NCBI GenBank assembly: GCA_964510965.1
Contig: CAZECX010000003.1
Coordinates: 9,670 to 73,669 of the forward strand
Length of the DNA: 64,000 bases
Direction: 5' to 3'
Source: an uncultured Nitrospina sp.
GTDB taxonomy: Bacteria; Nitrospinota; Nitrospinia; Nitrospinales; VA-1
Shown piece by piece: positions 581 to 58,047 of this stretch (position 1 is the stretch's first letter; each line of letters opens with the position of its first letter). A program made the position numbers and the translations under genes. Under the pieces are notes generated by a model. The model did not search any database. It saw nothing but the letters and a program-made list of their open reading frames with translations, and was not told the DNA's origin.

Positions 581-2602
581 TTACTGCTGGCATAAACGCG
601 TCGGTTTTATTTCTCTTAGAAGCTCTTTCATCCATAATCTTGTCAAAACCTTACCAAATGCTTGAGCCGATCTGCCGTAACGATTAAAATAAGACTCTAC
701 ATAGTCATAACTTTTGGGGGATGTGAAAAAAGTGAATTCCGTTTCCGAAGGGTGTTCAAACTCGGAAAGACCTCTTCCCGCCTTCAACCATGACGAGATG
801 TCATACCTTAAAAGCACATTTTCACTTAGGTTGAGCCGGTTGGTGTCCAGATAATTCTTATATCCCGATTTATAGTATTGATATAAATCACTTAGCATTC
901 GTTCTGGAATAATATTTGTTGCCACCTCTTCCAGCGTACCTTTAAGAAGATCCACCAAATCACTAGTATGGGAGATATAGGCCTTGCAAGAATATGTTTG
1001 CAATAGATTGCTTCCCGCATCTCCATTAACAAGGCGATCATAATTTTTCTTGTCTAGATAGAACTCGGAAGCTTCCTCGAAACTTTCAAATAACTCCTCA
1101 TGAGTTTCCCGGACAAATTCTGTATAAAGTTTCGATAGTTTAGGATGTGAAGAGAAATTCTCAAGAAGCTTGAAGGAAAAATCTTTTAAACTTAATTTAT
1201 ATTCACGAGCAATTTTAAAAAATCCGACAAAAGGCGCTCCGTTATAAACAACAGCTAAAATTAAGTGAAAAACCCTGGCCTTGATATATTCTTCAAAGGA
1301 AAATGTATTGGTTGCCACTACGATTTCTTCTAATTCAATAGATTTACCAGCATATACCAGATCGGAGAAACTACGTGGAAGCGCCCGATACTTTTTGACA
1401 AAACCATGCTTATTAAGCTTGGTTTCATCCAGTTTCATTTCAGTGCCATCTAAAAGCATTAGCTGATATGGGACAATCTTATCCAGTCCTGCATCCATTA
1501 ATTTAGAAATGGATGAAACATGCGTTTCAAAAGTTTCCCCGGGGAGACAAGTTATTACTTCGCTTTGCGTACCCTGTGTTGCGGTGCGCAAACTTTCTTG
1601 AACTGACAACATTGCGTCAACTGATATATTTTTCCTTTTAATATTCTCCAGAACATCATCAGTCATGGACTGCACAGACATCCACATAGGCATGGAAGTA
1701 TTCTTAAGTGTCTTGCTTATGTTGATCAAATTATCCTGGTTATTTTTTGCGGATGATGCAAACATGGTCGAGGGATAGTTATGCTTATCGTAAATTTCAT
1801 TGATATACTCCGCAAAGTCTATATCACTTTTAAACTGTCCAAAATTTGGATCAGCGATCATTAAATTATTCACTTTGCTGCCTACCCGATTGGCTATGTA
1901 TTTCAAATCATCTTTTATCCGTTGCCCATCAAACCTACTGACCTTCCTATAGAAGTCATGCCCCTCATGACAGAAGGTACAGCTATATGGGCATCCCCTA
2001 TGAGTTTCAAGCATGGGAGATAGCTTTCCATCAAAAAATTCATCCAGCAGACCTGTGGTGTAAGGCGACGGGTAATCATCAATCGAACGGCTTCGAGTAA
2101 TAGAATTAAAAGGAGCAAGTTTCCCATCATCTGACAAAAACAGGCTCCCCTCTAAAGCGGTTTTTTTCATTTTCTCGATATCAAATGATGATTGATGGGC
2201 ATTATCCAGCAGGCTTTTGAAGCTCGTTTCACCCTCAAACATACAATAGAAATCAACCAACCCTTTGTAACGAGTCATGAAAATTTCCTGCTCTTCGGTA
2301 TCATAAGAAATGTAGGGACCCCCAAATACGACTACTACATTTTTGTTTATGGATTTCACGTACCTGGCGATGGAAATATTCAAATTATGGTTCCATGGAT
2401 AATTTGAAAGCCCCAATATATCTGGGATTTTCTGGTTTATTTCCGAAATCAGTTTTTCGGGGTACTTGAAAAGCTTAAAATTCAAGTCTGGATAAAATTG
2501 CTTGCAATATGCCCCAACCATGCCAACATTCAGCGGAAAACTATCATTCGAAATGGTAATAGTAGTGTGAGTCAGGTCTGCTAAATATATTGATCTATTC
2601 AT
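581..2602 (-). CDS. Cobalamin-binding-domain radical SAM protein (class B, long form)
   Basis: 673-aa ORF. It has an N-terminal B12-binding-type domain (DILGLSNYPWN, VVVFGGPY, MFEGETSF) and then the cluster motif ETHRGCPYSCTFCHEG (CX3CX2C). It is clearly paralogous by eye to 23646-25715 (YLADLTH vs YLADLAH; PSPYTTGLLDEF vs PSPYLTGVLDSF). Confidence 0.85.
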   Translation of the reverse strand: MNRSIYLADLTHTTITISNDSFPLNVGMVGAYCKQFYPDLNFKLFKYPEKLISEINQKIPDILGLSNYPWNHNLNISIARYVKSINKNVVVVFGGPYISYDTEEQEIFMTRYKGLVDFYCMFEGETSFKSLLDNAHQSSFDIEKMKKTALEGSLFLSDDGKLAPFNSITRSRSIDDYPSPYTTGLLDEFFDGKLSPMLETHRGCPYSCTFCHEGHDFYRKVSRFDGQRIKDDLKYIANRVGSKVNNLMIADPNFGQFKSDIDFAEYINEIYDKHNYPSTMFASSAKNNQDNLINISKTLKNTSMPMWMSVQSMTDDVLENIKRKNISVDAMLSVQESLRTATQGTQSEVITCLPGETFETHVSSISKLMDAGLDKIVPYQLMLLDGTEMKLDETKLNKHGFVKKYRALPRSFSDLVYAGKSIELEEIVVATNTFSFEEYIKARVFHLILAVVYNGAPFVGFFKIAREYKLSLKDFSFKLLENFSSHPKLSKLYTEFVRETHEELFESFEEASEFYLDKKNYDRLVNGDAGSNLLQTYSCKAYISHTSDLVDLLKGTLEEVATNIIPERMLSDLYQYYKSGYKNYLDTNRLNLSENVLLRYDISSWLKAGRGLSEFEHPSETEFTFFTSPKSYDYVESYFNRYGRSAQAFGKVLTRLWMKELLREIKPTRLCQQ

Positions 2603-3165
2603 ATCAAATGCCCGAAGGGACTGACGAAAAAACGGAATTTAGAAAATTGAGCCATTTGAAGCGAATCTGTGAATAAACAAAGAGTAACTAACAAATTGAA
2701 AACCGTAAAAAAGCTTGGGATTTAATTTACCCTAAAAATCCCATGAATTTAGCCGAAGTCAAGTTGCTCAATTTTACGCTTAAACTGAAAAAATCTCAAC
2801 CAGGGAAGTGTTTTTAGGCAATTAGAAGTTTCTATGGGTAATAAGGAACCGGCTCCCGAATACACGAACCGTTTGGCAAAGGTGTCTCGGCATATTTCTT
2901 AGGTAAGCTTTTTACCCACCTAGCTCTGAATTCACCTAGCTTTAGTTGATAAAATTTTCTGGTTATTTTTATGGTATCCTTCTTCCAATTTGGAAAGGGT
3001 GGCATCATTTATTGAGCGCAAATTTATTTTAATTGATCATTTTCGATATTTTTAAACCTCAAAATAGCCCTCTACCCCCACTACCAACTATGCTAAATTA
3101 AAATCTTGGTGGCATCACGGTCTCACTAAATTTCTTTTCCAGGCACTAAAAGGAGAGCTTCGCAA

Positions 3166-4437
3166 ATGAAGTCCTTTGCTAAAATTGTTTTTATAAATAG
3201 TATTATTTTAATTATTGGAGTGATTTTTCTTGAGCTTCTCTTCGGTAATTGGACCTTATATATTTCAAATAATTTTTTAAAAAAGGATTCTACCGCGCGT
3301 TTTACCGACCGCTACTATGAAACGGTTTTCACAATGTGTCCCGATGAGCGTTTGCACCATATTTATTGTCCCGAAATTTCCCATAAAAACAAGATGCTAC
3401 CTACCGATGGGGGAGAAGTAATAGTGAGTTTTATTAATAAATCGTCCATCAGGGTTGCGGGACCTAGTGACATGTCAGCAGTTACGGATGTGACTAGTTA
3501 CGATGTAATCAATATAGGTGACTCGTTTTTACAAGCAGATGAAATACCTTATGAATATACCTTGAGCAGCGTAATGGAAGAAGCCAGCGGGAAAACGGTC
3601 CTGCAGGTAGGAATGGGAAGTTGGGCACCGCTAAACTTTTATGCTTGGTTGAAAAAAAATGAGTTGCGTAAAAATGTAGAGGTAAATATGTTTGTAATGA
3701 CCAACGATTTTCTGCCTAACTATGGGCTTTCAAACTTGAACTATTATCGTTTGGGAGAAATGGGGGAATCGGGTGAACTGCAATTTGGAGATTTCAGCTT
3801 TATGTGGAAAATATTTGGGGAATCTGAGTTCCCGTCGCTGCTAAAACATGCACTGGTAATGAATTCTGCAATCTATAGGCTTTTACTAAGAATAAAAACC
3901 AAGTGGAAAGAAAAAAAATCACCCTTAAGCATATCTTCACCTGACATGTTTTCAGATATATTGACAGACCCTGTTAAAGACTGTGATCGCATAAAGAAAT
4001 ATGAAAATATTACCGTTTTGACTCGTGATTATGTACGTTTGGCTTTTAATAAGAGTTGTTGGAATGAGGAACTACATAAATATGTTGATAGCGCTATAAA
4101 GGATATACGAAAATCTATTAACGAAGTAAACAAGGTAGGTGGAAAGATGCGAATCTTGATGATACCTGCTGCCTGGGCATTTGAGGATGAAGGTGTTGAT
4201 GGCAAAACCCATGATGCATATAATATGGATGCTAATGCTGCAATTACCGCAGAACCGCTTGTAGAATATCTCAAGTTGAAATTGTCTGACACTAATATTG
4301 AAGTAGTATCTTTAGAAAAATTGATTAAAAGTGCTAAAAAACAGACAAATAAAAATTATTATTTCCCTACAGATGGACATTGGAATAAAAAAGCACATAA
4401 AATGCTGGGCACATGGTTGGCTGAACCATTTCATTGA
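3166..4437 (+). CDS. Membrane-anchored SGNH/GDSL-like hydrolase or O-acyltransferase (AlgX/AlgJ-like)
   Basis: AAGGAG lies 8-9 nt upstream of the ATG. There is an N-terminal TM helix (FAKIVFINSIILIIGVIFLELLF). A GDS block (INIGDSFLQ) and a C-terminal DxxH block (FPTDGHWNKKAH) fit the SGNH catalytic motifs. Confidence 0.55.
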   Translation: MKSFAKIVFINSIILIIGVIFLELLFGNWTLYISNNFLKKDSTARFTDRYYETVFTMCPDERLHHIYCPEISHKNKMLPTDGGEVIVSFINKSSIRVAGPSDMSAVTDVTSYDVINIGDSFLQADEIPYEYTLSSVMEEASGKTVLQVGMGSWAPLNFYAWLKKNELRKNVEVNMFVMTNDFLPNYGLSNLNYYRLGEMGESGELQFGDFSFMWKIFGESEFPSLLKHALVMNSAIYRLLLRIKTKWKEKKSPLSISSPDMFSDILTDPVKDCDRIKKYENITVLTRDYVRLAFNKSCWNEELHKYVDSAIKDIRKSINEVNKVGGKMRILMIPAAWAFEDEGVDGKTHDAYNMDANAAITAEPLVEYLKLKLSDTNIEVVSLEKLIKSAKKQTNKNYYFPTDGHWNKKAHKMLGTWLAEPFH

Positions 4438-4474
4438 TAATCTCACACCCAATTCAGTTTTTGCTTCCTCAATT

Positions 4475-4522
4475 AGGTAAAGGAAGGCGGCACGCCTTAC
4501 CTCTATTAATATAAATTTTTTT
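4475..4522 (+). terminator. Candidate weak rho-independent terminator after the SGNH gene
   Basis: A GC-rich hairpin AAGGCG-gca-CGCCTT (4484-4498) has extra lower pairing. A T7 run at 4516-4522 lies about 14 nt downstream, so the spacing is non-canonical. Confidence 0.3.
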
Positions 4523-4616
4523 ATCTTTTAGGCGCTAAATCCTGCCGTCCTTATTAATTATTTTATGAATCTAAAGTTTTCCGTCCTTTTTAATTCCTTG
4601 TGATTGCACCTGAGAA

Positions 4617-6707
4617 ATGAACCAGCCAAATGATAATAATGGGTTTTCAGTTTCCGAAAAAACTGATGGACCAAGAGATTACCATCGTAATCCCAGGCCT
4701 GGAGGCAACAACCATAAGGCTTTAGTTGTGATTCAGGATCTTTCCTGTGGATCCCTCTTTCCCTTGTTGGGGGTCTATTTTAAGCAGGGTCCCTTTTTGA
4801 TTTATTATCAAAGAGCCACTCGCGGAGGCTTGAGATTAGCTTTTCTGCTTCACCTATTTGGAATTGCAACATCCGATCCATTAAAAATCAAAGATTTATT
4901 TTATTTCGGCACCCCAAATACGAATTTTTGGGAAATCCAATACCAGGTCACTAAGACCTGCAAAGATCAACTGGATCGGATTGAAAGCATTATCGAAACA
5001 TATATTCCCAAGTGCACTCTTTATAGAAAAAAAATTTTTGCAACGAATGTAAGTCGTGCATGGCAAGTCTGGATTAATGAAGCCCTCCTTTTGCACTCTG
5101 TAGCCAGGAGGTTAGGAAAACAGGAGAATATTCCTACGGACCATGTGATTCTTATTTCTCGATATGCTTCCTTGTTGAAAATTTTAAATTTGAACCCATC
5201 AACAAAGAATGACGTTTTTGTCATGTCCCACCCCAATCAGAACAAGGCTGTTTTATATCCTCTGGCCACAGTACTTTTTAGCATCTTGGAAGTACTGCAG
5301 GTATTTTTTAAATTTTTTATACCCAAAACAACTCAGGCTTCAAAATCTTTTTATTCTTTTAAGCTTGGTGCAGCAGCCGCCTGGGGAACTGAAGGAATGG
5401 ACAAAAACCAAAAAGACGATTTGTATTGGTGGCGCAATAGCTCAATAGCTGCAGATCGTTTGTTTTATATGTTTGAGCGAGAAAATATCCAACCCACTAG
5501 GGATCGAGTAGGGCAAGTCAAAAATCTTGGTATTGAATCGGTGGCGTTGAATTCCAAGTTTCCAGGAGATTATCCAAATTTAATAATTCCAAATATACAA
5601 AATCAATCATTATTTATATCAGTACGAAGATTTTGTTTAATATCCAAGCTTGCCTGGACATCCTTTATCAAAGACGAGTTTTCTCAGGCAGTATTGGCGT
5701 TAGTGTGTTGGCAATATTTTAAAGGTAAAAAGCTTTCCGATATTTACAAGAAATTAAATCTAAAAGGAATATTTCATTTTGAAGAAGCAGGTTTGGATTT
5801 AATCTCGCTTGCCTCTGATATGAGCGATTCCATTCGCATTGGAACACATTGGGCTTCTCACGCCGGTATTAATCAAATTTGCAGCCGAAACCATCAGGTA
5901 TATTTTCTTTGGGGGCATCATGATGCCCAACTCGCTCTGGATGCGGGGTCAATATCCAAAAATTTACTACTTTCAGGATGTTTTTTGTCCGACCACTCAA
6001 ACAATGAAGAGCATCAAAATGCTCAGAAAAAGGTACAAGAAATGCGAAAGCAGGGTGTTCGTTACATCCTTACTTTGTTCGATGGCTCTTCCCCAAGTCC
6101 CGATTTCTACGGATTTTTCCTGAATTGGTTAATTGAAGATCCTCATCTAGGATTACTAATAAAAGGAAAAGGGGAGCTAAGGATAGATAAAAATGATGAC
6201 AATTTAAATGATTTGTTTATACGTGCAGAAAAAACCAATCGACTGTACGTAATGGATCATACATCTTCACCCGGAGACGCTGCTACCTTGTCCGATTTTT
6301 CAGTGGGCATTAGCACAATATCTGCTCTGGTCGTAGCGGCTATTCAAGGAGCCAAAATAATTTTCCTGGATTATGAAAAGGTTGATCAAGGGCCTCAAAA
6401 ACAATATTGTATTTTGCACTCATTGGGTCACAATCGTTGTGTTTTTTATGAAACTAAATTATTACGTCAGGCAATTACTGATTTCTTTACCAACCCCGCT
6501 GCTAACCCAAATTTGGGAAACGCCACTCCCATTTTGGATAAGATTGACCCTTTCAGAGATGGAAAAGCCAGTCAGAGAATTGGTGAATTCGTCGCCTCGT
6601 ACCTTGAGGAACTGGATAATGGATCAAGCTCGGATGATGCTGTTCGTGTCGCAACAGATCGATATGCCCAAAAATGGGGACAAGATAAAGTAATTCGAAG
6701 AATATAG
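4617..6707 (+). CDS. Large uncharacterised protein, possible GT-B-fold (TagF/capsule-type) glycosyl- or phosphotransferase
   Basis: 696-aa ORF. The C-terminal part (FSVGISTISALVVAAIQGAKIIFLDY ... DPFRDGKASQRIGEFV) resembles C-termini of TagF/KpsS-like GT-B enzymes and resembles 17085-18260. The start codon is uncertain because the N-terminus is unusual and low in complexity. Confidence 0.35.
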   Translation: MNQPNDNNGFSVSEKTDGPRDYHRNPRPGGNNHKALVVIQDLSCGSLFPLLGVYFKQGPFLIYYQRATRGGLRLAFLLHLFGIATSDPLKIKDLFYFGTPNTNFWEIQYQVTKTCKDQLDRIESIIETYIPKCTLYRKKIFATNVSRAWQVWINEALLLHSVARRLGKQENIPTDHVILISRYASLLKILNLNPSTKNDVFVMSHPNQNKAVLYPLATVLFSILEVLQVFFKFFIPKTTQASKSFYSFKLGAAAAWGTEGMDKNQKDDLYWWRNSSIAADRLFYMFERENIQPTRDRVGQVKNLGIESVALNSKFPGDYPNLIIPNIQNQSLFISVRRFCLISKLAWTSFIKDEFSQAVLALVCWQYFKGKKLSDIYKKLNLKGIFHFEEAGLDLISLASDMSDSIRIGTHWASHAGINQICSRNHQVYFLWGHHDAQLALDAGSISKNLLLSGCFLSDHSNNEEHQNAQKKVQEMRKQGVRYILTLFDGSSPSPDFYGFFLNWLIEDPHLGLLIKGKGELRIDKNDDNLNDLFIRAEKTNRLYVMDHTSSPGDAATLSDFSVGISTISALVVAAIQGAKIIFLDYEKVDQGPQKQYCILHSLGHNRCVFYETKLLRQAITDFFTNPAANPNLGNATPILDKIDPFRDGKASQRIGEFVASYLEELDNGSSSDDAVRVATDRYAQKWGQDKVIRRI

Positions 6708-43889: not shown

Positions 43890-43902
43890 TATCGAAAAAA
43901 TT

Positions 43903-52716: not shown

Positions 52717-53559
52717 ATGGCAGTAGGGCATCGCGCTGGGAACTGGAAAGCGAAGGCTTTTGTTTTATTTAAAAAATTTCATATTAGCAACTCTGTATCT
52801 GGTGAGATATATAGACTATATAACCGAGTTAATAATTTTATTAAGTATAGAGATCCTTATTTTTTTCGTAGTGTTTCTATAGAGATATCAACTAATTGTA
52901 ATCGGACATGCAGTTATTGCCCCAATGTACTAGAAGGAACTCCAACTGAATTCATGTCGGAAGATACCTTTAATAAGGTCATAAAAGACCTTCAATCTAT
53001 TAATTTTTCCGGCATTATTAATTACCATTTTTATAATGAGCCACTATTAGATAAAAGGCTCCCGGAATTTGTTCGCTATGTAAGAAAACATCTTCCATCT
53101 TGTGTTAGTCGAGTTTTTTCTAATGGAGATTTTCTCACCTTAGACTTGGCTGATAGATTAATTGATGCTGGTGTGGCAGATTTTAACATTACTATTCATG
53201 ATAAAAGTGATGCGAAGTTGTTAAAGAAATTGAACCCAGTTCTTGAAAAATATCCCGAGTATTTAAGTATATCGACGCTTCGTGATAAGCCCTTATTTAA
53301 TCGGGGGGGAGCTGTTGAAGTTGATTTGCTTGACAAGAAAGATGTCTGCACTGATCCTTTGGAAGTTCTTCAAGTGGATTACAAGGGTAATGTGCTTTTA
53401 TGCTGTAATGATTATTACCGAAAACATTCGTTTGGTAATATAGCTGATGAAGAAATTTACCAGATTTGGCAAGGAGATGATTTTTTTAGCTTGAGGCGAG
53501 AGCTGAGGAGGGGCATCGCTAAATTGGAAATTTGTCGAGTCTGTATGGGAAAAGAATGA
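52717..53559 (+). CDS. Radical SAM protein with Cys-rich C-terminal (SPASM-like) region
   Basis: AAGGAA SD. Cluster motif IEISTNCNRTCSYCPN and C-terminal cysteines (VCTDP, LLCCNDY, ICRVCMG). It contains a G7 tract at 53303-53309. Confidence 0.8.
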   Translation: MAVGHRAGNWKAKAFVLFKKFHISNSVSGEIYRLYNRVNNFIKYRDPYFFRSVSIEISTNCNRTCSYCPNVLEGTPTEFMSEDTFNKVIKDLQSINFSGIINYHFYNEPLLDKRLPEFVRYVRKHLPSCVSRVFSNGDFLTLDLADRLIDAGVADFNITIHDKSDAKLLKKLNPVLEKYPEYLSISTLRDKPLFNRGGAVEVDLLDKKDVCTDPLEVLQVDYKGNVLLCCNDYYRKHSFGNIADEEIYQIWQGDDFFSLRRELRRGIAKLEICRVCMGKE

Positions 53560-53727
53560 AACTAACTTTTAAACCTACCTCTGAGTTTCTTTTACATTAG
53601 AGATAAAGTAAGACCATCTAGAGTTAATTTCCAAACCCTCTAAAATCGCCGTAGAGAACAGGAGCAACAGACATAGAAAAAAGCGCTCTGTTCCAAAACA
53701 TCCACTTCATTAATTTGATCAGGTTCT

Positions 53728-54492
53728 TTAAGAGTTACCTCGGCGAGTGAATTCGAGCAATAAGCGGAAAGACAGGAAACGCCCAACAAATGGCAAAAGT
53801 AATCGCTCTAAAGATAAAATGAATTTTACCGTCCATTGTGGGATGAGGCTCCATGGTTTAAAACCACCGGCAAGTGGAAACGCAAGAAGGGTATGATAGC
53901 GAAAGTCGAACTGTTCAAATTCTGGTAGTTCTGCCTTTAGCTTAGAGTTGTATTTACCTTTTAATAATGTGGCTATCGCCAGGTTGGCTAATCTTGCATC
54001 GCGTAAAGGATCAATAATTCCCTTTTCAAGAGGATCAACACTCATGTTCATCTCTTCCACGTGATATAATTTGTACAAGAGCCAACTGCAAGGCGTGATT
54101 GCGGAGTCCAGTAGAATGAGCTTTCCTCCAGACTTAAGCAAACGTGAAGCTTCTTTTAAAAAGTAGATAGGCCATTCAATATGATGGAGAACGTCAATTG
54201 CGATTATGTTGGCAAATGCGGCGTCACGAAATGGTAATTTCTGTGCGTCGGCCACAATATTAATCCAAGGCGATGGCACGATATCCGTGTAAATAATATC
54301 ACCGAAAATACGACCTAAATTACCGCTGGCACTTCCAACTTCCAGCGTCTTGCCTTCAACTGATAATTTTCGGAGCTCCTGGTAACAGTCCTCATAGATT
54401 TCTTTTAGAACGGGCTTTCTTTCGAAGACATTTCCAATACTTTCTATCCATTCACCTGGAGATACATTCTGGTCTTGGGGACGGTAGTTCAT
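53728..54492 (-). CDS. Class I SAM-dependent methyltransferase
   Basis: Motif I GKTLEVGSASGNLG, acidic loop IIYTDI, and GGKLILLD. Confidence 0.7.
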   Translation of the reverse strand: MNYRPQDQNVSPGEWIESIGNVFERKPVLKEIYEDCYQELRKLSVEGKTLEVGSASGNLGRIFGDIIYTDIVPSPWINIVADAQKLPFRDAAFANIIAIDVLHHIEWPIYFLKEASRLLKSGGKLILLDSAITPCSWLLYKLYHVEEMNMSVDPLEKGIIDPLRDARLANLAIATLLKGKYNSKLKAELPEFEQFDFRYHTLLAFPLAGGFKPWSLIPQWTVKFILSLERLLLPFVGRFLSFRLLLEFTRRGNS

Positions 54493-54753
54493 GTCTATCC
54501 TTGATTTTTAAATATATCAGTTACCATTTTTGCGCCATCATAAATAACCTACCCCTAGCTTGACTTTAAGTCCATCATATGGAAGGCCTGAGATCTTATC
54601 ATAGGTGAGGGATGTCAGGTACCCCTGATTGTAGAATTACCTTTCGATTGTAGAGCTAAATTCACACAAGAAGGAAATAATAAAAAACAATTATAATTTA
54701 AAAACGCCTTTTCACCTTGTTGACTGAACGTATCACCCTTTTCCATGGTTAAT

Positions 54754-54924
54754 GGTTGACTAATAGCCAAGCCCCTTATAAAATTTTAATTAAATTGAAA
54801 AATAGGAAACTTGCTTTCTACAAAACCAATCCAAGAACTTCTAAATGAAACAAGAAAGACTCCCCATTTTTATCGCTAAAAGACCCATAGTCTCAAAAAC
54901 AGGTGCCATTTACGACGAACCAAC
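54754..54924 (+). repeat. Copy A of a ~170-bp imperfect direct repeat (promoter + 5' end of a class-B radical SAM gene)
   Basis: It aligns by eye at roughly three quarters identity with 56378-56549. Both copies share GGTTGACTA, AAGCCCCTTATAA, CTTGCTTTCTACAA, AAATGAAACAAGAAAGACTCCC and AGGTGCCATT. It includes TTGACT (54756-54761), N17, TAAAAT (54779-54784). Confidence 0.8.
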
Positions 54925-55218: not shown

Positions 55219-56376
55219 ATGAATATTGACCTTCCCTATCACCAACCCTTCATCGAGGACGATGAGATCAATGAAGTGGTTGAAACGCTTAAATCCGGCT
55301 GGCTGACCACGGGTCCCCGTACTTTCCAATTTGAGAAGGATTTCAAAGAATACATTGGTTGTGGTCATGCTATCGGACTGAACTCTTGTACCGCTGGCCT
55401 CCATTTGGCTTTGAGCACACAGGATTTTGATCCCGGTGATGAAGTTATCACTACCACGATGACATTTCCTGCGACCGCGAGCGCCATGGTTCATGAGCAG
55501 CTAACTCCAGTTCTCGTTGATGTGGAACCGGGAACAATGACAATAGACATAAATCGAATCGAAGAAAAAATAACCCCTCGCACCCGGGCTATAGTGCCTG
55601 TCCATTATGCAGGGCATCCTTGCGATATGGACCCCATTATGGATTTAGCACGAAAAAATAAACTTGTGGTGATTGAGGATGGCGCTCATGCAATAGAAAC
55701 CAAATACAAAGGACGCAAGATAGGCAATTTGGGAAACCCAACTGCATTCAGCTTTTACGCTAACAAAAATATCACCACTGGGGAAGGGGGAATGCTGACA
55801 TTGAATGATGAATCCATGGCTGACCAGGTCCGCATTCTTCGTTTGCATGGGATAAGCCGAGATGCCTGGAAACGTTTTGGCAAGAGCGGGTTTGTGCACT
55901 GGGATTTTGAAATGCCAGGGTACAAATTCAATATGACGGATATCAATGCCGCTATGGGTATCCATCAGTTGAAAAAAGCAGGACGCTTTCTTGAAGTGCG
56001 CAAGCAGTATGCTTCCTTATATGATCAGGCCTTCAATCAGGTACCTGAAATTGAAGTACTTGAAACTCGCGATTATGCTGAACCCTCGCACCATTTGTAT
56101 GTCATCGCCTTAAGGCTCGAACAGCTCACCGTGACAAGAGACGAATTCATTGACACGATTCAATCTACGGGAATTGGAGTCGCAGTACATTATCGAGCAC
56201 TTCATCTTCAACCGTATTTCCAAAAAGAATTCAGAGCCAGAATGGATACATTTCCCATTGCCACTCGCTATTCTGAAAGTGTTATCTCCCTCCCACTTTA
56301 TCCTCGCATGTCTGTCAAAGATGTAGAGCGCGTTATTGGAGTGATAACAGATTTAGTCGCTCGTTTTCGCCGTTAA
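55219..56376 (+). CDS. DegT/DnrJ/EryC1/StrS-family PLP-dependent sugar aminotransferase (second copy)
   Basis: LPYHQPFIEDDEINEVVETLKSGWLTTGPRTFQFEKDF and the lysine region SFYANKNITTGEGG. Confidence 0.85.
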   Translation: MNIDLPYHQPFIEDDEINEVVETLKSGWLTTGPRTFQFEKDFKEYIGCGHAIGLNSCTAGLHLALSTQDFDPGDEVITTTMTFPATASAMVHEQLTPVLVDVEPGTMTIDINRIEEKITPRTRAIVPVHYAGHPCDMDPIMDLARKNKLVVIEDGAHAIETKYKGRKIGNLGNPTAFSFYANKNITTGEGGMLTLNDESMADQVRILRLHGISRDAWKRFGKSGFVHWDFEMPGYKFNMTDINAAMGIHQLKKAGRFLEVRKQYASLYDQAFNQVPEIEVLETRDYAEPSHHLYVIALRLEQLTVTRDEFIDTIQSTGIGVAVHYRALHLQPYFQKEFRARMDTFPIATRYSESVISLPLYPRMSVKDVERVIGVITDLVARFRR

Positions 56377-56377: not shown

Positions 56378-56549
56378 GGTTGACTATAACGCAAGCCCCT
56401 TATAAGATTTTAAATTAAGTTGAAATATCAGGAAGCTTGCTTTCTACAACCAATTTCCAGTACTACCAAATGAAACAAGAAAGACTCCCGATCACTTTTG
56501 TTAGAGGACCCATTGTCTCCAAAATAGGTGCCATTAACAACGAGTCAAC
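56378..56549 (+). repeat. Copy B of the ~170-bp direct repeat (functional promoter/5' end of 56470-58047)
   Basis: See copy A at 54754-54924. Confidence 0.8.
56380..56408 (+). promoter_or_regulatory. Candidate sigma70-type promoter of the radical SAM gene at 56470
   Basis: TTGACT (56380-56385), 17-nt spacer, TAAGAT (56403-56408). The same architecture is conserved in the duplicated copy at 54756-54784. Confidence 0.4.
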
Positions 56550-58047
56550 CCCTGCCATTGGGTTCGCTTATCTATCAGGGTACTTGAGGAAATTTGGTTA
56601 CGAACCGGAAATGGTAGATGCCATAGGAGAAGGGATTAATCGGCTGTGGCCATTAGAAAAGTATCCCGGATTTCAAGCTCAAGGACTGAAATTTGATGAA
56701 ATAATTGCTCGCATTCCCAAGGATTCAAAAGTGATTGGATTCTCCCTAATGTTTTCTAGTGAATGGCCAGTGGCTCGCGATTTGATAACCGAAATTCGCA
56801 AATTTTTTCCTAATGCATTAATTGTTGGTGGTGGTGAGCATATAACGAGTCTAGTTGAGTACAGTCTAAAGGATTGCCCCGCGCTTGATGTCTGTGTAAG
56901 AGGAGAGGGAGAACAAACTCTCTTGGAATTAATTATGGCCTATGAAAAAACGGGAAGTTTTAAAGGAGTAGGCGGCACAGCTTATCTGGATGAAAATAAT
57001 ATCCTTCATTTGGATGAATCTCCTCCTCCGCGAATCCGCAAAATTGATGAAATCGGTTGGCCTTTTTGGCCAGATGAGTATTTAGAAAAATTCTGGGACT
57101 CCGGGAAATCATTTGGAGTGGCCACAGAAAAAGATATGCCATTCATGGTTTCAAGAGGATGTCCGTACCAGTGCACCTTCTGCTCAAGCCCAAATATGTG
57201 GACGACTCGTTACCTATTAAGGGATGTAAATGATGTCATCGATGAAGCTAAAAATTATATTAAACGTTTTGGGATCAGCAGCCTGCAATTTTATGATTTG
57301 ACCGCCATTACCAAAAAGGGTTGGATAGTTGAATTTTGCAATAAGCTCATTCAGGAAGGAATTCAATTAAACTGGTCCCTGCCTAGTGGAACCCGCAGTG
57401 AAGCTCTGGATGGAGAATCATTAAAATTGTTGAAAGAAACGGGTTGCAATTATCTCGTTTATGCCCCCGAAAGTGCTTCTTTGAGAACCTTGAAAAAAAT
57501 CAAAAAGAAAATAAAGTTAGACCAACTCACAGAATCAGTATTAGAAGCCAAGCGCCAGAAATTGACCGTCCGGATTAATCTAATTATTGGATTCCCGGAG
57601 GAAACATGGACCGACATTTTTAAAACCATGTTCTATGGACTTAGAATGTCCGCAAATGGAATAGACGAAGCTCCTCTTTACATTTTTTCACCTTATCCCG
57701 GCACAGAAATCTTTAAGCAATTGGAAGATGAAAACAAAATTACTCTTGATGATGATTACTTTTTAGCTTTGGGTGCTCTTAACAGCTCATACCTTTCTTC
57801 GAGAATTGTATGTTTTAATCCAAATATTAACGCACGATTATTAGGGCTATTAAGAACTATTTTTATGATCTCCAATTATTCTGTAAGCTACCTTTTCTTC
57901 CCAAAGAGAATTTTTCGAACTTTGAAAAATATTTTTTCAGCCCATGAAAATGAAGCAGTGACAGTTCTGGAACACCGACTAAGGGATTTAATTCAAAGAA
58001 AAAAAATGGTTGAGCCTGAATTGAAACAAACAAATTCTTTGGGATAA
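56470..58047 (+). CDS. Cobalamin-binding-domain radical SAM protein (class B)
   Basis: B12-type N-terminal domain (KVIGFSLMFSS, LIVGGGEHIT, RGEGEQTLLE) and cluster motif VSRGCPYQCTFCSSPNMWTTRY. The ATG at 56470 is preferred to the ORF-track TTG at 56437 because the duplicated remnant starts at the equivalent ATG. Confidence 0.85.
   Translation: MKQERLPITFVRGPIVSKIGAINNESTPAIGFAYLSGYLRKFGYEPEMVDAIGEGINRLWPLEKYPGFQAQGLKFDEIIARIPKDSKVIGFSLMFSSEWPVARDLITEIRKFFPNALIVGGGEHITSLVEYSLKDCPALDVCVRGEGEQTLLELIMAYEKTGSFKGVGGTAYLDENNILHLDESPPPRIRKIDEIGWPFWPDEYLEKFWDSGKSFGVATEKDMPFMVSRGCPYQCTFCSSPNMWTTRYLLRDVNDVIDEAKNYIKRFGISSLQFYDLTAITKKGWIVEFCNKLIQEGIQLNWSLPSGTRSEALDGESLKLLKETGCNYLVYAPESASLRTLKKIKKKIKLDQLTESVLEAKRQKLTVRINLIIGFPEETWTDIFKTMFYGLRMSANGIDEAPLYIFSPYPGTEIFKQLEDENKITLDDDYFLALGALNSSYLSSRIVCFNPNINARLLGLLRTIFMISNYSVSYLFFPKRIFRTLKNIFSAHENEAVTVLEHRLRDLIQRKKMVEPELKQTNSLG

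What the first reader, a model, noticed from the sequence alone, without database searches (positions are those of the whole stretch)
581..58047. Ten radical-SAM genes, seven with cobalamin-binding domains, packed into one sugar-biosynthesis island
Seen in sequence: seven ORFs combine an N-terminal B12-binding-type domain with a CX3CX2C cluster motif.
- 581-2602: CPYSCTFC
- 21259-23229: CVARCTFC
- 23646-25715: CPFACTFC
- 25769-27418: CPFACTYC
- 47476-48996: CPYQCTFC
- 49510-51048: CPYRCEYC
- 56470-58047: CPYQCTFC

Three further radical-SAM ORFs lack the B12 domain but have Cys-rich C-termini: 29806-30969 (CNFRCIFC), 36454-37620 (CNLRCSFC) and 52717-53559 (CNRTCSYC). An eighth class-B gene survives as a 5' remnant at 54845-54979.

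Established knowledge: characterised class-B radical SAM enzymes (Fom3, GenK, PhpK, TsrM, BchQ/R, HpnP and others) mostly methylate or alkylate unactivated C or P atoms. They act in antibiotic, pigment or hopanoid pathways.

Inference: these genes are interleaved with nonulosonate, heptose, glycosyltransferase, methyltransferase and dioxygenase genes. That suggests an unusually heavily radical-tailored (for example C-methylated or alkylated) surface glycan or glycolipid. I know of no described precedent for this gene density.
Basis: partly seen in the sequence, partly recalled or inferred. Interest (0 to 1): 0.8.

Follow-up and report, generated by a model that had tools for sequence, protein, structure and literature searches.

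The report
Radical-SAM-rich sialic-acid-like glycan island
A marine nitrite-oxidising bacterium (Nitrospinota) carries a sugar-biosynthesis island of more than 60 kb with ten radical-SAM genes, and at least one vitamin-B12-dependent family among them sits next to sialic-acid-type synthase genes in several phyla, which points to undescribed radical tailoring of cell-surface sugars.

Summary
All ten ORFs are radical-SAM proteins with the stated CX3CX2C motifs, and seven carry an N-terminal B12-binding domain. The 5' remnant is real, and there is a second one.

The window comes from a Nitrospinota bacterium close to Ca. Nitromaritima. None of the ten reaches the curated cut-off of any named family (BchE, HpnR, PhpK, KedN5 and others).

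- **B1 (581-2602) and B3 (23646-25715)** are relatives of the iterative C-methylases TokK and CysS. B1 matches TokK by sequence (E 3e-38) and by full-length predicted fold (TM 0.77-0.79). Both keep the clade-specific Trp under the cobalamin.
- **B1-family homologues** (31-51% identity) lie beside NeuB and a CMP-sugar cytidylyltransferase in 6 of 6 contexts examined, including Sulfuricella and Terriglobales.
- **S1 (29806-30969)** belongs to a conserved cassette: 2-hydroxyacid dehydrogenase, epimerase, HAD, cytidylyltransferase, radical SAM.
- **B2 (21259-23229)** is conserved across Nitrospinota. Its link to sugar genes is mixed.

Nitrospina gracilis and Ca. Nitromaritima carry similar clusters, so the pattern is typical of the lineage rather than unique. 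No paper in the held library links radical SAM enzymes to nonulosonic acids.

Radical tailoring of a surface glycan is the best reading. C-methylation is well grounded only for B1 and B3. No chemistry has been tested.

The parts
581..2602 (-). B1: class-B (B12-binding) radical SAM, TokK/CysS-like putative C-methyltransferase, motif CPYSCTFC
   Evidence: Pfam B12-binding + Radical_SAM. PDB phmmer: TokK 3.3e-38, CysS 5.3e-36. AF2 model pLDDT 89.8. Foldseek: TokK TM 0.77-0.79 over the full length, CysS 0.70-0.74, next best OxsB 0.50. The equivalent of TokK Trp76 (W70) is invariant in the family. NCBIfam KedN5 score 181, below the cut-off of 700. Homologues sit beside NeuB in 6 of 6 contexts.
3166..6707 (+). 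Two ORFs of unknown function: 3166-4437 (423 aa, N-terminal TM segment, faint SGNH/AlgX-like hits) and 4617-6707 (696 aa)
   Evidence: No significant Pfam, NCBIfam or PDB match. Both are kept next to B1 in two other contigs of the same population.
6761..12359 (.). Diamino-nonulosonate-type module: SAM methyltransferase (6761-7684 +), NeuD/PglD acetyltransferases (7681-8343 -, 8843-9463 +), NAD dehydratase/epimerase (9460-10488 +), DegT aminotransferase (10549-11664 +), CMP-sugar cytidylyltransferase (11661-12359 +)
   Evidence: Pfam. NCBIfam: NeuD_NnaD passes (206 > 161). PseC/LegC and PseF are the best matches for the aminotransferase and cytidylyltransferase but fall below cut-off.
12369..19865 (-). 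Tail of the long minus-strand gene string: xylose-isomerase-like TIM barrel, formyltransferase, PF02522 N-acetyltransferase, AMP-binding adenylating enzyme, and two unknown ORFs (17085-18260, 18522-19865)
   Evidence: Pfam. No matches for the two unknown ORFs. In N. gracilis the TIM-barrel domain (AP_endonuc_2) is fused to NeuB.
19979..21061 (-). NeuB-family nonulosonate synthase
   Evidence: PF03102, 4e-93. TIGR03569 NeuB_NnaB scores 469, above the cut-off of 400.
21259..23229 (-). B2: class-B radical SAM, motif CVARCTFC, conserved across Nitrospinota
   Evidence: Pfam. Homologues are 52-75% identical, including N. gracilis, Ca. Nitrohelix and Nitrospinae CG11. It lies in the NeuB cluster in N. 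gracilis but next to an MsbA-like ABC transporter in Nitrohelix and CG11. Best family match is BchE at 150, below the cut-off of 481.
23646..25715 (-). B3: class-B radical SAM, TokK/CysS-like, motif CPFACTFC
   Evidence: 31% identical to B1 over 549 aa. KedN5 family score 156, below 700. It keeps the equivalents of both TokK signature tryptophans: ANYTWN (W68) and CTFCVWG.
25769..27418 (-). B4: class-B radical SAM, motif CPFACTYC
   Evidence: Pfam. Best family match is HpnJ at 96, below 578. Homologues of 32-36% identity occur in the N. gracilis NeuB cluster (two copies) and next to the S1 cassette in L090.
27836..28843 (-). SAM-dependent methyltransferase (Methyltransf_23)
   Evidence: Pfam.
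29042..34308 (-). Conserved S1 cassette: 2-hydroxyacid dehydrogenase (33334-34308), NAD epimerase (32431-33324), HAD phosphatase (31748-32401), CTP_transf_3 cytidylyltransferase (30973-31734), radical SAM/SPASM S1 (29806-30969, CNFRCIFC), SDR (29042-29755)
   Evidence: Pfam. The five core genes, in the same order, are 60-79% identical in L090, and the same domain order is found on a third contig. More than 120 S1 clusters share 62-86% identity. For S1 the best match by sequence and by fold is BtrN, but it is weak.
34566..38565 (+). Glucosamine-6-P isomerase/6-phosphogluconolactonase-family gene (34566-35288), GT2 (35450-36451), radical SAM S2 (36454-37620, CNLRCSFC), GT2 (37726-38565)
   Evidence: Pfam. 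The S2 start lies 2 nt after the end of the upstream GT2 gene. S2 gives weak matches to SkfB, MoaA, EpeE and viperin. It has C-terminal cysteines at 278, 296, 350, 352 and 356. A Glucosamine_iso gene also precedes the S1 cassette in L090.
38728..44481 (+). Nucleotide-sugar module with a heptose-like domain set: GHMP kinase, FAD oxidoreductase, epimerase, nucleotidyltransferase, HAD, transaldolase/FSA, SIS isomerase
   Evidence: Pfam. HddA (174 vs 600) and GmhA (56 vs 209) are the best matches but lie far below cut-off, so the sugar's identity is tentative.
44509..46626 (-). 705-aa polytopic membrane protein with a C-terminal soluble domain; rare family related to DUF6798
   Evidence: Hydropathy analysis. 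Only 64 representatives with E<=1e-3 among 1.84 billion. 15 of 28 aligned sequences (the window protein and 27 relatives) hit PF20604 DUF6798; the window protein itself does not. A 50%-identical fragment occurs in Ca. Nitromaritima.
47476..48996 (+). B5: class-B radical SAM, motif CPYQCTFC
   Evidence: Pfam. 70% identical to a Ca. Nitromaritima gene. Best solved relatives are MgmA/QCMT (9ccb, 2.9e-14) and AprD4 (7.9e-13). BchE scores 168, below 481.
49510..51048 (-). B6: class-B radical SAM, motif CPYRCEYC
   Evidence: Pfam. Best family match is the Sden_1168 P-methyltransferase family at 155, below 575.
51600..54492 (.). PhyH-family Fe(II)/2-oxoglutarate dioxygenase (51600-52514 +), short radical SAM/SPASM S3 (52717-53559 +, CNRTCSYC), SAM methyltransferase (53728-54492 -)
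   Evidence: Pfam. The PhyH and methyltransferase genes have 67-68% identical orthologues next to the B5 and B7 orthologues in Ca. Nitromaritima.
52571..52647 (+). Inverted 77-nt remnant of B6 (copy of 50501-50577)
   Evidence: Inverted repeat, 82% complementary. tblastn with B6 residues 154-183: 63% identity, E 3e-5.
54733..54924 (+).
   Evidence: Direct repeats D1 and D2, 74-76% identical, spacing about 1625 nt. tblastn 67% over 27 aa. A promoter-like site occurs in both copies, at 54756-54784 and 56380-56408.
55219..56376 (+). Second DegT aminotransferase, lying between the two copies of the B7 5' region
   Evidence: Pfam 2.5e-124. PseC scores 356, below 424. It is absent between the B5 and B7 orthologues in Ca. 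Nitromaritima.
56470..58047 (+). B7: class-B radical SAM, motif CPYQCTFC
   Evidence: Pfam. 35% identical to B5. 79% identical to a Ca. Nitromaritima gene. The ATG at 56470 is supported by the 525-aa gene call in other contigs and by the remnant.

Best explanation
**What it is.** The window is most of a cell-surface glycan biosynthesis island of at least 70 kb, from a marine Nitrospinota bacterium close to Ca. Nitromaritima.

**What it encodes.**
- At least two NeuB-type nonulosonic (sialic-acid-like) acid pathways.
- Three CMP-sugar cytidylyltransferases.
- A further nucleotide-sugar module with a heptose-like domain set.
- Glycosyltransferases.

The ten radical-SAM enzymes are tailoring enzymes of these sugar pathways.

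**Shown here.**
- B1 and B3 belong to the TokK/ThnK/CysS type of cobalamin-dependent radical SAM enzyme.
- The B1 family is an embedded component of NeuB/NeuC/CMP-transferase operons across phyla.
- S1 is a fixed member of a cassette with a cytidylyltransferase.
- Related Nitrospinota carry the same kind of cluster.

**Inferred.**
- B1 and B3 use methylcobalamin and a 5'-deoxyadenosyl radical to add one or more methyl groups to an unactivated sp3 carbon. The substrate would be a nonulosonate, its hexosamine precursor or a substituent. Candidates are the N-acetyl methyl group, the C9 methyl group, or an O-methyl group installed by the neighbouring SAM methyltransferases, by analogy with CysS. 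The products would be C-alkylated nonulosonic acids.
- S1, S2 and S3 perform radical oxidation, epimerisation or dehydration on (CMP-)sugar intermediates.
- B2 and B4-B7 perform further methylations or rearrangements that cannot be specified.
- The finished sugars are built into an LPS O-antigen, a capsule or a protein glycan. The acceptor is unknown.
- Nitrospinae are reported to be B12 auxotrophs, so this surface decoration would depend on scavenged cobalamin.
For: **Domains and motifs.**

**B1 classification.**
- TokK 3.3e-38 and CysS 5.3e-36 by sequence.
- High-confidence model (pLDDT 89.8) superposing on TokK over all three domains at TM 0.77-0.79, against OxsB 0.50 and TsrM 0.43.
- The Trp under the cobalamin, which the TokK paper says is shared only by TokK, ThnK and CysS, is invariant in 39 family members.

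**B1-family neighbourhoods, 6 of 6 with NeuB and CTP_transf_3.**
- The window's own left flank.
- L093.
- L094.
- Sulfuricella, L095, with GT9, GT4 and an ABC transporter.
- L096, fused to a SPASM radical SAM and lying between two NeuB genes.
- Terriglobales, L097, between NeuB and NeuC and downstream of Wzm/Wzt.

**S1 cassette.** Conserved in gene order, with 60-79% identity in L090. S1 itself is 62-86% identical in more than 120 clusters.

**Related Nitrospinota.**
- N. gracilis: Wzx, B2 orthologue, CTP_transf_3, DegT, Fe-ADH, NeuB, two B4-like genes, S1-like gene.
- Ca. Nitromaritima: three class-B and one SPASM radical SAM among GHMP kinase, nucleotidyltransferase, GT2, GT4, PhyH and methyltransferase genes.

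**Sugar genes.** NeuB and NeuD pass curated cut-offs.

**Not a named family.** No radical-SAM protein here reaches the cut-off of a named family with an unrelated role.

**B12 auxotrophy of Nitrospinae.** PMC8026999 and PMC5029188.
Against: - No chemistry was tested, and no glycan structure is known for any Nitrospinota.
- B1 and B3 score far below the curated KedN5-family cut-off (181 and 156 vs 700).
- B1 has Glu where TokK has the active-site Trp215, and Phe where TokK has the substrate-binding Arg280. The substrate, and possibly the outcome, therefore differ.
- TokK and CysS act on pantetheine-linked substrates, not on sugars.
- In Nitrohelix and CG11 the B2 orthologue sits beside an MsbA-like ABC transporter among housekeeping or LPS-ligase genes, with no NeuB nearby. 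B2 may therefore act on something other than a nonulosonate.
- The ~39%-identical relatives of B5 in Planctomycetota are mostly solitary. In 69 of 79 loci no neighbour resembled any window sugar gene.
- The neighbourhood sample for B1 is small (six loci) and was chosen from long contigs, not drawn at random.
- The window contains no flippase, polymerase, ligase or acceptor gene, so 'surface glycan' rests on gene content and on relatives (Wzx, Wzm/Wzt, Wzy_C).
Confidence: 0.6

Rival explanations
1. Some or all of the class-B enzymes, B2 above all, modify a lipid or the lipid A/core part of the envelope. Examples would be methyl-branching of acyl chains or hopanoid-type lipids exported by an MsbA-like transporter. 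On this view their presence in the sugar island reflects a shared envelope function, not sugar tailoring.
For: - B2 orthologues lie directly downstream of an ABC_membrane+ABC_tran gene in Ca. Nitrohelix, where a Wzy_C gene follows, and in Nitrospinae CG11, where no sugar island is present.
- B2 is conserved at 52-75% identity across the phylum like a core gene, whereas glycan islands are usually variable.
- Known class-B enzymes include lipid-modifying ones, namely the HpnP, HpnR and HpnJ families and the 'lipid biosynthesis B12-binding/radical SAM' family. These give partial matches.
Against: - No match reaches a lipid-family cut-off: HpnR at most 85 vs 650, HpnJ at most 135 vs 578, TIGR04072 at most 92 vs 360.
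- In N. gracilis and in this window B2 lies within a few hundred bases of the nonulosonate genes: NeuB in the window, CTP_transf_3 in N. gracilis.
- ABC transporters of this type also flip lipid-linked glycans, as PglK and Wzk do (established knowledge).
- B1 and S1 are clearly tied to NeuB or to a cytidylyltransferase.
Confidence: 0.15
2. The island, or part of it, makes a diffusible small molecule, such as an aminoglycoside-like, nucleoside-like or acylated sugar natural product, rather than a cell-surface polymer. This would resemble the antibiotic pathways in which characterised class-B enzymes such as GenK, Fom3, TokK and CysS work.
For: - The closest characterised relatives of B1 and B3 (TokK, CysS, KedN5 family) and one of the two best solved matches of B5 (AprD4) come from antibiotic pathways.
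- The island contains an AMP-binding adenylating enzyme, a PF02522 'aminoglycoside' N-acetyltransferase, a formyltransferase and a PhyH dioxygenase.
- The window contains no Wzx, Wzy or WaaL gene.
Against: - The island has three CMP-sugar cytidylyltransferases and at least two NeuB genes and two GT2 genes.
- Relatives carry Wzx, Wzm/Wzt, Wzy_C, GT9 and GT4 genes typical of LPS or capsule loci.
- No NRPS, PKS, carrier-protein, resistance or regulator gene was found.
- The cluster type is conserved across a phylum of chemolithoautotrophs.
Confidence: 0.1
3. The co-location is largely incidental. A recombination-prone, low-GC variable island has accumulated horizontally acquired radical-SAM genes, several of which may be decaying or serve unrelated substrates such as peptides (SPASM maturases).
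For: - Two gene remnants and a duplicated promoter region show recent rearrangement.
- Island genes have 34-45% GC, against 43-47% for the pilus-like flank.
- SPASM domains are typical of peptide maturases, and partial matches to such families exist.
Against: - All ten ORFs are intact with complete cluster motifs.
- Close homologues of 60-90% identity exist in many independent metagenomes, which implies purifying selection.
- Gene pairs recur across phyla: B1 with NeuB, and S1 with a cytidylyltransferase.
- No candidate precursor peptide, peptidase or RiPP recognition gene was seen among the small ORFs.
Confidence: 0.07

Closest known systems
TokK / ThnK (carbapenem) and CysS (cystobactamid) iterative cobalamin-dependent radical SAM C-methyltransferases; NCBIfam KedN5 family NF033712
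   Same: - B1 and B3 share the three-domain architecture: Rossmann B12 domain, radical-SAM barrel and a large C-terminal domain.
- Both have the CX3CX2C motif.
- Both keep the clade-specific Trp beneath the cobalamin. B3 also keeps the active-site Trp.
- B1 matches TokK at E 3e-38 by sequence and TM 0.77-0.79 by fold.
- The expected mechanism is the same: SAM methylates cob(I)alamin, a second SAM gives the 5'-deoxyadenosyl radical, and a methyl group is transferred to a substrate carbon radical.
   Different: - Identity to TokK is only about 22%.
- Scores are far below the curated family cut-off.
- B1 has Glu in place of TokK Trp215 and Phe in place of Arg280.
- The genomic context is nonulosonate and CMP-sugar genes in Gram-negative envelope loci, not an antibiotic cluster with carrier-bound substrates.
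- The substrate and the number of methylations are unknown.
Sugar-modifying class-B radical SAM enzymes of antibiotic pathways: GenK and GenD1 (gentamicin C-methylation), Fom3 (methylation of cytidylylated hydroxyethylphosphonate), AprD4 (diol dehydratase on paromamine)
   Same: - These are precedents, from established knowledge, for class-B-type enzymes acting on amino sugars and on CMP-conjugated substrates.
- AprD4 is among the best solved matches of B5 (7.9e-13).
   Different: - No specific sequence relationship was found; the matches are generic.
- Those enzymes serve secondary metabolites in actinomycetes. Here the setting is a primary cell-envelope glycan locus.
Nonulosonic acid (legionaminic, pseudaminic or neuraminic acid) biosynthesis loci of LPS, capsule and flagellin glycosylation islands
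   Same: NeuB synthase, NeuC-type 2-epimerase (left flank), NeuD/PglD acetyltransferases, a dehydratase, a DegT aminotransferase and CMP-synthetases are all present.
   Different: - Described loci tailor the sugar by N-acylation, O-acetylation and O- or N-methylation.
- I found no paper in the held library that mentions both radical SAM and nonulosonic acids.
- This island interleaves ten radical-SAM genes with the sugar genes.
BtrN and DesII: radical SAM dehydrogenase and deaminase acting on aminocyclitol and TDP-sugar substrates
   Same: BtrN is the best match of S1 both by sequence (1e-6) and by fold (E 5e-8). DesII also appears among the fold matches. Both are precedents for radical oxidation of sugar-like secondary alcohols.
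   Different: - The similarity is weak: TM normalised to the query is about 0.4.
- S1 has an extra helical N-terminal region of about 110 aa and a full SPASM domain.
- Its function was not tested.

Membership tests
Class B (cobalamin-binding) radical SAM enzymes | CX3CX2C motif ligating the radical-SAM [4Fe-4S] cluster, within a PF04055 domain | tested here: met
   One motif in each of the seven proteins. PF04055 is above the gathering score in all seven.
Class B (cobalamin-binding) radical SAM enzymes | N-terminal Rossmann-type B12-binding domain (PF02310) | tested here: met
   Above the gathering score in six of seven. B3 scores 19.1 vs 32.1, but it aligns with B1 over the whole N-terminal domain and keeps the Trp under the cobalamin.
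Class B (cobalamin-binding) radical SAM enzymes | Actual binding and use of cobalamin | not testable with these tools
   This needs purified protein. AprD4 shows that the domain can be present without use of B12 (established knowledge).
TokK/ThnK/CysS-type iterative methylases (NCBIfam NF033712, KedN5 family) | Score at or above the curated family cut-off (700 bits) | tested here: not met
   B1 scores 180.9 and B3 scores 156.1.
TokK/ThnK/CysS-type iterative methylases (NCBIfam NF033712, KedN5 family) | Three-domain fold including the TokK-type C-terminal domain | tested here: met
   The B1 model (pLDDT 89.8) matches TokK at TM 0.77-0.79 over about 684 columns and CysS at 0.70-0.74. The next best match is OxsB at 0.50. 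B3 was not modelled.
TokK/ThnK/CysS-type iterative methylases (NCBIfam NF033712, KedN5 family) | Trp beneath the cobalamin (TokK Trp76), reported as shared only by TokK, ThnK and CysS | tested here: met
   B1 has W70 in SNYPWN and B3 has W68 in ANYTWN. The residue is invariant in the 39-sequence family alignment.
TokK/ThnK/CysS-type iterative methylases (NCBIfam NF033712, KedN5 family) | Active-site Trp after the cluster motif (TokK Trp215) | tested here: inconclusive
   B3 keeps it (CTFCVWG). B1 and at least 90% of its family have His-Glu there instead (FCHEG).
TokK/ThnK/CysS-type iterative methylases (NCBIfam NF033712, KedN5 family) | Sequential methyl transfers to one carbon centre of a pantetheine-linked substrate | not testable with these tools
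   This requires an enzyme assay. No carrier-protein gene was found in the window.
BchE (anaerobic Mg-protoporphyrin monomethyl ester cyclase, TIGR02026) | Score at or above the curated cut-off (481 bits) | tested here: not met
   The best score is B5 at 167.5. B2 scores 150 and B7 scores 142. The JGI 'BchE' names on B2 homologues are transferred annotation.
Hopanoid methylase/biosynthesis radical SAM enzymes (HpnR TIGR04367, HpnJ TIGR03471) | Score at or above the curated cut-offs (650 and 578 bits) | tested here: not met
   HpnR scores at most 85 and HpnJ at most 135.
P-methyltransferases (PhpK TIGR04479, Sden_1168 NF038361) | Score at or above the curated cut-offs (600 and 575 bits), with phosphonate genes (PEP mutase) nearby | tested here: not met
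   The best score is B6 at 155 for Sden_1168. No PEP mutase domain was found in any window ORF.
SPASM/twitch radical SAM enzymes | C-terminal PF13186 domain binding auxiliary Fe-S clusters | tested here: met
   S1 scores 43.0 and S3 scores 44.2, against a cut-off of 21.5. S2 has no PF13186 hit, only a C-terminal cysteine cluster. No named maturase family reaches its cut-off.
Nonulosonic acid biosynthesis pathway | NeuB-family condensing synthase | tested here: met
   TIGR03569 scores 468.7, above 399.65. A second NeuB+SAF gene lies left of the window.
Nonulosonic acid biosynthesis pathway | CMP-activating cytidylyltransferase and the precursor enzymes (dehydratase, aminotransferase, N-acetyltransferase, 2-epimerase) | tested here: inconclusive
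   All the Pfam domains are present and NeuD passes its cut-off. PseF, PseC/LegC, LegB and PseB are the best hits but fall below cut-off. Which nonulosonate is made is therefore undetermined.
GDP-D-glycero-alpha-D-manno-heptose pathway | GmhA isomerase, HddA kinase, GmhB phosphatase and HddC nucleotidyltransferase | tested here: inconclusive
   The domain set is present (SIS, GHMP, HAD, NTP_transferase). However, HddA scores 174 vs 600 and GmhA 56 vs 209.

The most novel reading that the evidence does not exclude
A cross-phylum clade of TokK/CysS-like, B12-dependent radical SAM enzymes is an integral step of nonulosonic (sialic-acid-like) acid biosynthesis and produces C-alkylated nonulosonic acids, a sugar class not yet described. 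In Nitrospinota, the main nitrite oxidisers of the ocean and B12 auxotrophs, up to seven such enzymes plus three other radical SAM enzymes remodel the surface glycan. Cell-surface identity, and so recognition by phages and grazers, would then depend on cobalamin obtained from other microbes such as ammonia-oxidising archaea.
Probability: 0.35. Interest if true: 0.8.

Novelty: new variant of a known kind. Interest (0 to 1): 0.62.

Why it matters
- **Enzymology.** It would extend cobalamin-dependent radical methylation from antibiotics, pigments and protein or RNA modification to primary cell-envelope sugars. A 2026 review of B12-dependent radical SAM enzymes does not use the words polysaccharide, glycan or sugar.
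- **A testable target.** It names a concrete enzyme family, the NeuB-linked B1 clade with signature CPxSCTFCHEG and an invariant YxWN. Its genomic context predicts the substrate.
- **Cultured organisms.** Nitrospina gracilis carries relatives of B2, B4 and S1 inside a NeuB cluster, and the enrichment culture Ca. Nitrohelix carries a B2 orthologue, so the glycan chemistry can be examined directly. No B1-family gene was seen in the Nitrospina gracilis or Ca. Nitrohelix stretches examined.
- **Ecology.** The cobalamin-requiring enzymes named in the Nitrospinae genome paper checked for this are methionine synthase, methylmalonyl-CoA mutase and ribonucleotide reductase. A set of B12-dependent surface-glycan enzymes would add a further cobalamin demand in a key group of the marine nitrogen cycle.
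- **Application.** C-alkylated sialic-acid analogues and the enzymes that make them would interest glycoengineers.

Tried and rejected
- **Named-family membership.** NCBIfam placed none of the ten proteins in any curated family. BchE, HpnJ/HpnR, PhpK, HemN-like, MoaA and RiPP-maturase identities are rejected as memberships.
- **Riboswitch control.** Rfam found nothing at gathering scores or at E<=1, so there is no cobalamin or SAM riboswitch. No tRNA marks an integration site.
- **Unknown ORFs.** The ORFs of 696, 705, 391, 447 and 423 aa have no Pfam or NCBIfam match at E<=0.001 and no PDB sequence match at E<0.1. The two large ones are unrelated to each other, as are the 391- and 447-aa ORFs. 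The 705-aa protein could only be tied loosely to DUF6798, through relatives.
- **Possible transposase fragment.** The 68-aa ORF at 46711-46917 looked by eye like a transposase helix-turn-helix. Pfam found nothing, so this is not claimed.
- **Metagenome scan with B1.** It returned a single locus.
- **B5 relatives in genomes.** Beyond Ca. Nitromaritima they are mostly Planctomycetota genes of about 39% identity, generally without recognisable sugar-gene neighbours. They say little about the function of B5.
- **Fold search for S1.** It gave only generic radical-SAM matches, with BtrN best at TM about 0.4-0.6. This is not enough to name a reaction.
- **Fusion check for S1.** I hoped to see S1 homologues fused to a cytidylyltransferase, a 'spiro-SPASM' lead recalled from memory. 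The 120 best hits were all stand-alone proteins of about 387 aa, so the lead remains untested.
- **Organism name.** The taxon is inferred from best hits.

Full report

Yes. The ORF list contains all ten ORFs at the stated coordinates. For the last one, the ATG at 56470 is preferable to the upstream TTG at 56437, because gene calls on other contigs give 525 aa.

Pfam finds Radical_SAM in all ten and B12-binding in the seven claimed. Six are above the gathering score. 23646-25715 is below it (19.1 vs 32.1), but it is 31% identical to 581-2602 over 549 residues. Each protein has exactly one CX3CX2C motif with the quoted sequence.

Among the three without a B12 domain, 29806-30969 and 52717-53559 have SPASM domains. 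36454-37620 has only a C-terminal cysteine cluster.

The seven class-B proteins are 21-35% identical to each other. They are ancient paralogues, not a recent amplification. I label them B1 (581), B2 (21259), B3 (23646), B4 (25769), B5 (47476), B6 (49510) and B7 (56470). The other three are S1 (29806), S2 (36454) and S3 (52717).

**2. Remnants and rearrangement.**

The 5' remnant is real. 54845-54925 encodes 27 residues that are 67% identical to the start of B7. It lies inside a duplication of about 190 nt: 54733-54924 and 56357-56549, 74-76% identical. The duplication also carries a promoter-like site in both copies.

The DegT gene at 55219-56376 lies between the copies. It is absent between the B5 and B7 orthologues of Ca. 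Nitromaritima, so it looks like an insertion.

A second scar is a 77-nt inverted copy of part of B6 at 52571-52647.

**3. Source and extent.**

B5, B7, the PhyH gene and a methyltransferase are 67-79% identical to genes on one contig of Ca. Nitromaritima sp. SCGC AAA288-L16. B2 has homologues of 52-75% identity labelled Nitrospina gracilis, Ca. Nitrohelix vancouverensis, Nitrospinaceae and Nitrospinota. The window is therefore from a marine Nitrospinota bacterium.

The island continues beyond the left edge of the window. There it encodes two GFO_IDH-type oxidoreductases, a third CTP_transf_3, a NeuC-type epimerase, a second NeuB+SAF, an ABC exporter, an epimerase and a nucleotidyltransferase.

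On the right, the island ends at pilus or type II secretion-like genes (PilM, a PilO-like gene, pseudopilins) of higher GC: 0.43-0.47, against 0.34-0.45 in the island.

**4. Gene content around the radical-SAM genes.**

- NeuB passes the curated NeuB_NnaB cut-off, and one acetyltransferase passes NeuD_NnaD.
- The dehydratase, the two aminotransferases and the cytidylyltransferases match PseB/LegB, PseC/LegC and PseF best, but below cut-off. Which nonulosonate is made stays open.
- The 'heptose' module has the right domain set (SIS, GHMP kinase, HAD, nucleotidyltransferase, transaldolase-like), but HddA and GmhA score far below cut-off.
- Also present are two GT2 glycosyltransferases, three SAM methyltransferases, a PhyH dioxygenase, an adenylating enzyme, a PF02522 N-acetyltransferase, a formyltransferase and a xylose-isomerase-like TIM barrel.
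- Five sizeable ORFs have no family match.

**5. What are the radical-SAM proteins?**

NCBIfam places none of them in a curated family. The best partial scores are:

| Protein | Best family | Score | Cut-off |
|---|---|---|---|
| B1 | KedN5 | 181 | 700 |
| B3 | KedN5 | 156 | 700 |
| B2 | BchE | 150 | 481 |
| B5 | BchE | 168 | 481 |
| B7 | BchE | 142 | 481 |
| B6 | Sden_1168 | 155 | 575 |
| B4 | HpnJ | 96 | 578 |

B1 can be placed more precisely.
- Against solved structures it matches only TokK (3.3e-38) and CysS (5.3e-36).
- An AlphaFold model built from 39 family members is confident (pLDDT 89.8, pTM 0.89).
- The model superposes on TokK over all three domains at TM 0.77-0.79 and on CysS at 0.70-0.74. 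The next best are OxsB at 0.50 and TsrM at 0.43.
- The Trp76 equivalent is present in B1 (SNYPWN) and B3 (ANYTWN) and is invariant in the family alignment.
- The Trp215 equivalent is kept in B3 (CTFCVWG). In B1 and at least 90% of its family it is replaced by His-Glu (FCHEG).
- TokK's substrate-binding Arg280 is Phe in B1.

TokK builds ethyl and isopropyl groups by sequential methylation. CysS converts a methoxy group into ethoxy, isopropoxy and butoxy groups. B1 and B3 therefore work like these enzymes, but on a different substrate.

B5's best solved relatives are the methyl-coenzyme M reductase glutamine methylase MgmA/QCMT (9ccb) and AprD4. Both matches are weak.

S1's best match by sequence and by fold is the radical dehydrogenase BtrN, with DesII also listed. 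TM scores are only about 0.4-0.6.

**6. Are the radical-SAM genes functionally linked to the sugar genes?**

(a) *B1 family.* Six of six neighbourhoods contain NeuB and a CTP_transf_3 gene.
- The window's own left flank.
- A 31%-identical homologue flanked by two cytidylyltransferases, methyltransferases and NeuB (L093).
- A 51% homologue among NeuC/acetyltransferase, DegT, WbqC, hexapeptide transferase, methyltransferase, NeuB and a cytidylyltransferase (L094).
- A 49% homologue in Sulfuricella sp., divergent from NeuB-NeuC-NeuA and surrounded by GT4, GT9 and an ABC exporter (L095).
- A 47% homologue fused to a SPASM radical SAM and sandwiched between two NeuB genes (L096).
- A 37% homologue in a Terriglobales genome, inserted between NeuB and NeuC and downstream of Wzm/Wzt (L097).

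(b) *S1.* It is the fifth gene of a cassette: 2-hydroxyacid dehydrogenase, epimerase, HAD, cytidylyltransferase, radical SAM. The cassette is 60-79% identical gene by gene in L090 and has the same domain order on a third contig. S1 itself is 62-86% identical in more than 120 clusters from marine metagenomes.

(c) *Nitrospina gracilis.* It carries Wzx, a B2 orthologue, CTP_transf_3, DegT, Fe-ADH, NeuB (fused to the TIM-barrel domain), two B4-like class-B genes and an S1-like gene.

(d) *Ca. Nitromaritima.* It has three class-B and one SPASM radical SAM within 12 kb of GHMP kinase, nucleotidyltransferase, GT2, GT4, PhyH and methyltransferase genes.

The dense mixture is thus typical of the lineage rather than peculiar to this window.

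**7. Counter-evidence.**

- In Ca. Nitrohelix and Nitrospinae CG11 the B2 orthologue follows an MsbA-like ABC transporter. In Nitrohelix a Wzy_C gene comes next; in CG11 the surroundings are housekeeping genes. Neither has NeuB nearby.
- B2 behaves like a phylum-wide core gene. It may act on another envelope component.
- B5's relatives of about 39% identity in Planctomycetota are mostly solitary, without recognisable sugar-gene neighbours.
- The B1 neighbourhood sample is small and was drawn from long contigs.
- The window encodes no flippase, polymerase or acceptor.

**8. Mechanism proposed.**

*Shown.* Domain content, the TokK/CysS-type fold and signature of B1 and B3, and conserved linkage to NeuB or cytidylyltransferase genes.

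*Inferred.*
- B1 and B3 transfer one or more methyl groups through methylcobalamin to a carbon radical generated on a nonulosonate, on its precursor or on a substituent.
- Candidate carbons are the N-acetyl methyl group (alpha to a carbonyl, as in TokK), the C9 methyl group of a 9-deoxy sugar, or an O-methyl group placed by the adjacent SAM methyltransferases (as in CysS).
- The minimal Sulfuricella context (NeuB, NeuC, NeuA and the B1-like gene) argues that the sugar itself, rather than a separately activated acyl group, is the substrate.
- Fom3 acting on a CMP-conjugate, and GenK acting on an amino sugar, are precedents from established knowledge.
- S1-S3 probably perform radical oxidation, epimerisation or dehydration.
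- For B2 and B4-B7 the reaction cannot be inferred.

**9. Comparison with the literature.**

The full-text library holds no paper with both 'nonulosonic' and 'radical SAM'. None combines cobalamin-dependent radical enzymes with sialic acid, and none combines radical SAM with flagellin glycosylation and pseudaminic acid. Two papers hold both 'radical SAM' and 'legionaminic acid'. Judged from their titles and abstracts (a gut-microbiome study and a pyrrolamide biosynthesis study), they are unrelated to this question.

A 2026 review of B12-dependent radical SAM enzymes does not mention glycans, sugars or polysaccharides. Papers on Nitrospinae genomes describe B12 auxotrophy, and one of them lists methionine synthase, methylmalonyl-CoA mutase and ribonucleotide reductase as cobalamin-requiring enzymes. 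The library excludes most subscription journals, so absence here is not proof of novelty.

**10. Negative results.**

There is no riboswitch or other Rfam family, no tRNA, and no carrier protein, NRPS/PKS gene or precursor-peptide candidate.

**11. Verdict.**

The radical-SAM genes belong to the sugar pathways, and two of them are credible C-methylases, but the chemistry, the glycan and the acceptor are unknown, and B2 may serve another envelope target.

This is a new variant of known kinds: class-B radical SAM enzymes and nonulosonate glycan islands. The result with the widest reach is the cross-phylum NeuB-linked TokK/CysS-like clade.

Noticed in passing
window 54733-54924 and 56357-56549: A duplication of about 190 nt (74-76% identical) carries a promoter-like site and the first 27 codons of B7. 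The DegT gene at 55219-56376 lies between the copies and is missing between the B5 and B7 orthologues of Ca. Nitromaritima. It looks like an insertion that copied the B7 promoter.
   Followed up: partly
window 52571-52647 (copy of 50501-50577): A 77-nt inverted, 82% complementary copy of an internal piece of B6 lies in the gap between the PhyH gene and S3.
   Followed up: partly
window 44509-46626 (-): A 705-aa polytopic membrane protein with a C-terminal soluble domain belongs to a very rare family: 64 representatives at E<=1e-3 among 1.84 billion. It is linked to DUF6798 only through relatives. It could be the glycan transferase or polymerase of the island, but nothing shows this.
   Followed up: partly
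window 58095-63791 (-): A pilus or type II secretion-like gene set abuts the island and has higher GC (0.43-0.47). It comprises a 591-aa PilM-domain protein that may include a PilN-like part, a PilO-like gene, a 418-aa DUF7305-like protein and three prepilin-type proteins including a GspH-like one. In Ca. Nitrohelix a pseudopilin gene next to a PMT_2 membrane glycosyltransferase lies 9 kb from the B2 orthologue. Pilin glycosylation is a possible target and was not tested.
   Followed up: no
L083 10001-11953 and L089 10001-11968 (B2 orthologues): In two Nitrospinota genomes the B2 orthologue directly follows an MsbA/PglK-type ABC transporter gene, with a gap of about 90 nt. Similar ABC genes recur in the window's left flank, in L095 and on the third S1-cassette contig.
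   Followed up: partly
L085 11086-13008 (Nitrospina gracilis): NeuB is fused to a xylose-isomerase-like TIM barrel (AP_endonuc_2) in N. gracilis. In the window that domain is a separate gene at 12369-13247. The fusion suggests that the TIM-barrel enzyme belongs to the nonulosonate pathway.
   Followed up: no
L096 10001-13390: A 1,129-aa protein fuses a B1-type class-B radical SAM to a second radical SAM/SPASM module, and it lies between two NeuB genes. A second such fusion (1,153 aa) is also on record. The fusion links the two radical-SAM types that are separate genes in the window.
   Followed up: no
window 29042-34308 and L090 5866-11164: The S1 cassette (dehydrogenase, epimerase, HAD, cytidylyltransferase, radical SAM) is highly conserved and abundant in marine metagenomes. 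In both loci read as DNA a glucosamine-6-P isomerase/lactonase-family gene lies just upstream, co-directional in L090 and divergent in the window. It probably makes an unknown CMP-activated sugar acid.
   Followed up: partly
window 46627-47475: This 849-nt gap between the membrane-protein gene and B5 is the largest in the window. It holds a 68-aa ORF (46711-46917) that by eye resembles a transposase helix-turn-helix. Pfam finds nothing.
   Followed up: partly
window 14249-15310 and 15252-16889 (-): The longest ORF of the PF02522 acetyltransferase starts at a TTG that overlaps the upstream adenylating-enzyme gene by 59 nt. Its Pfam match begins only at residue 131, so the true start is probably further downstream.
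   Followed up: no
window 17085-18260 and 18522-19865 (-): Two ORFs (391 and 447 aa) directly downstream of NeuB in the same gene string have no match in Pfam, NCBIfam or PDB and are unrelated to each other. They are candidates for new nonulosonate-modifying or nonulosonate-transferring enzymes.
   Followed up: partly
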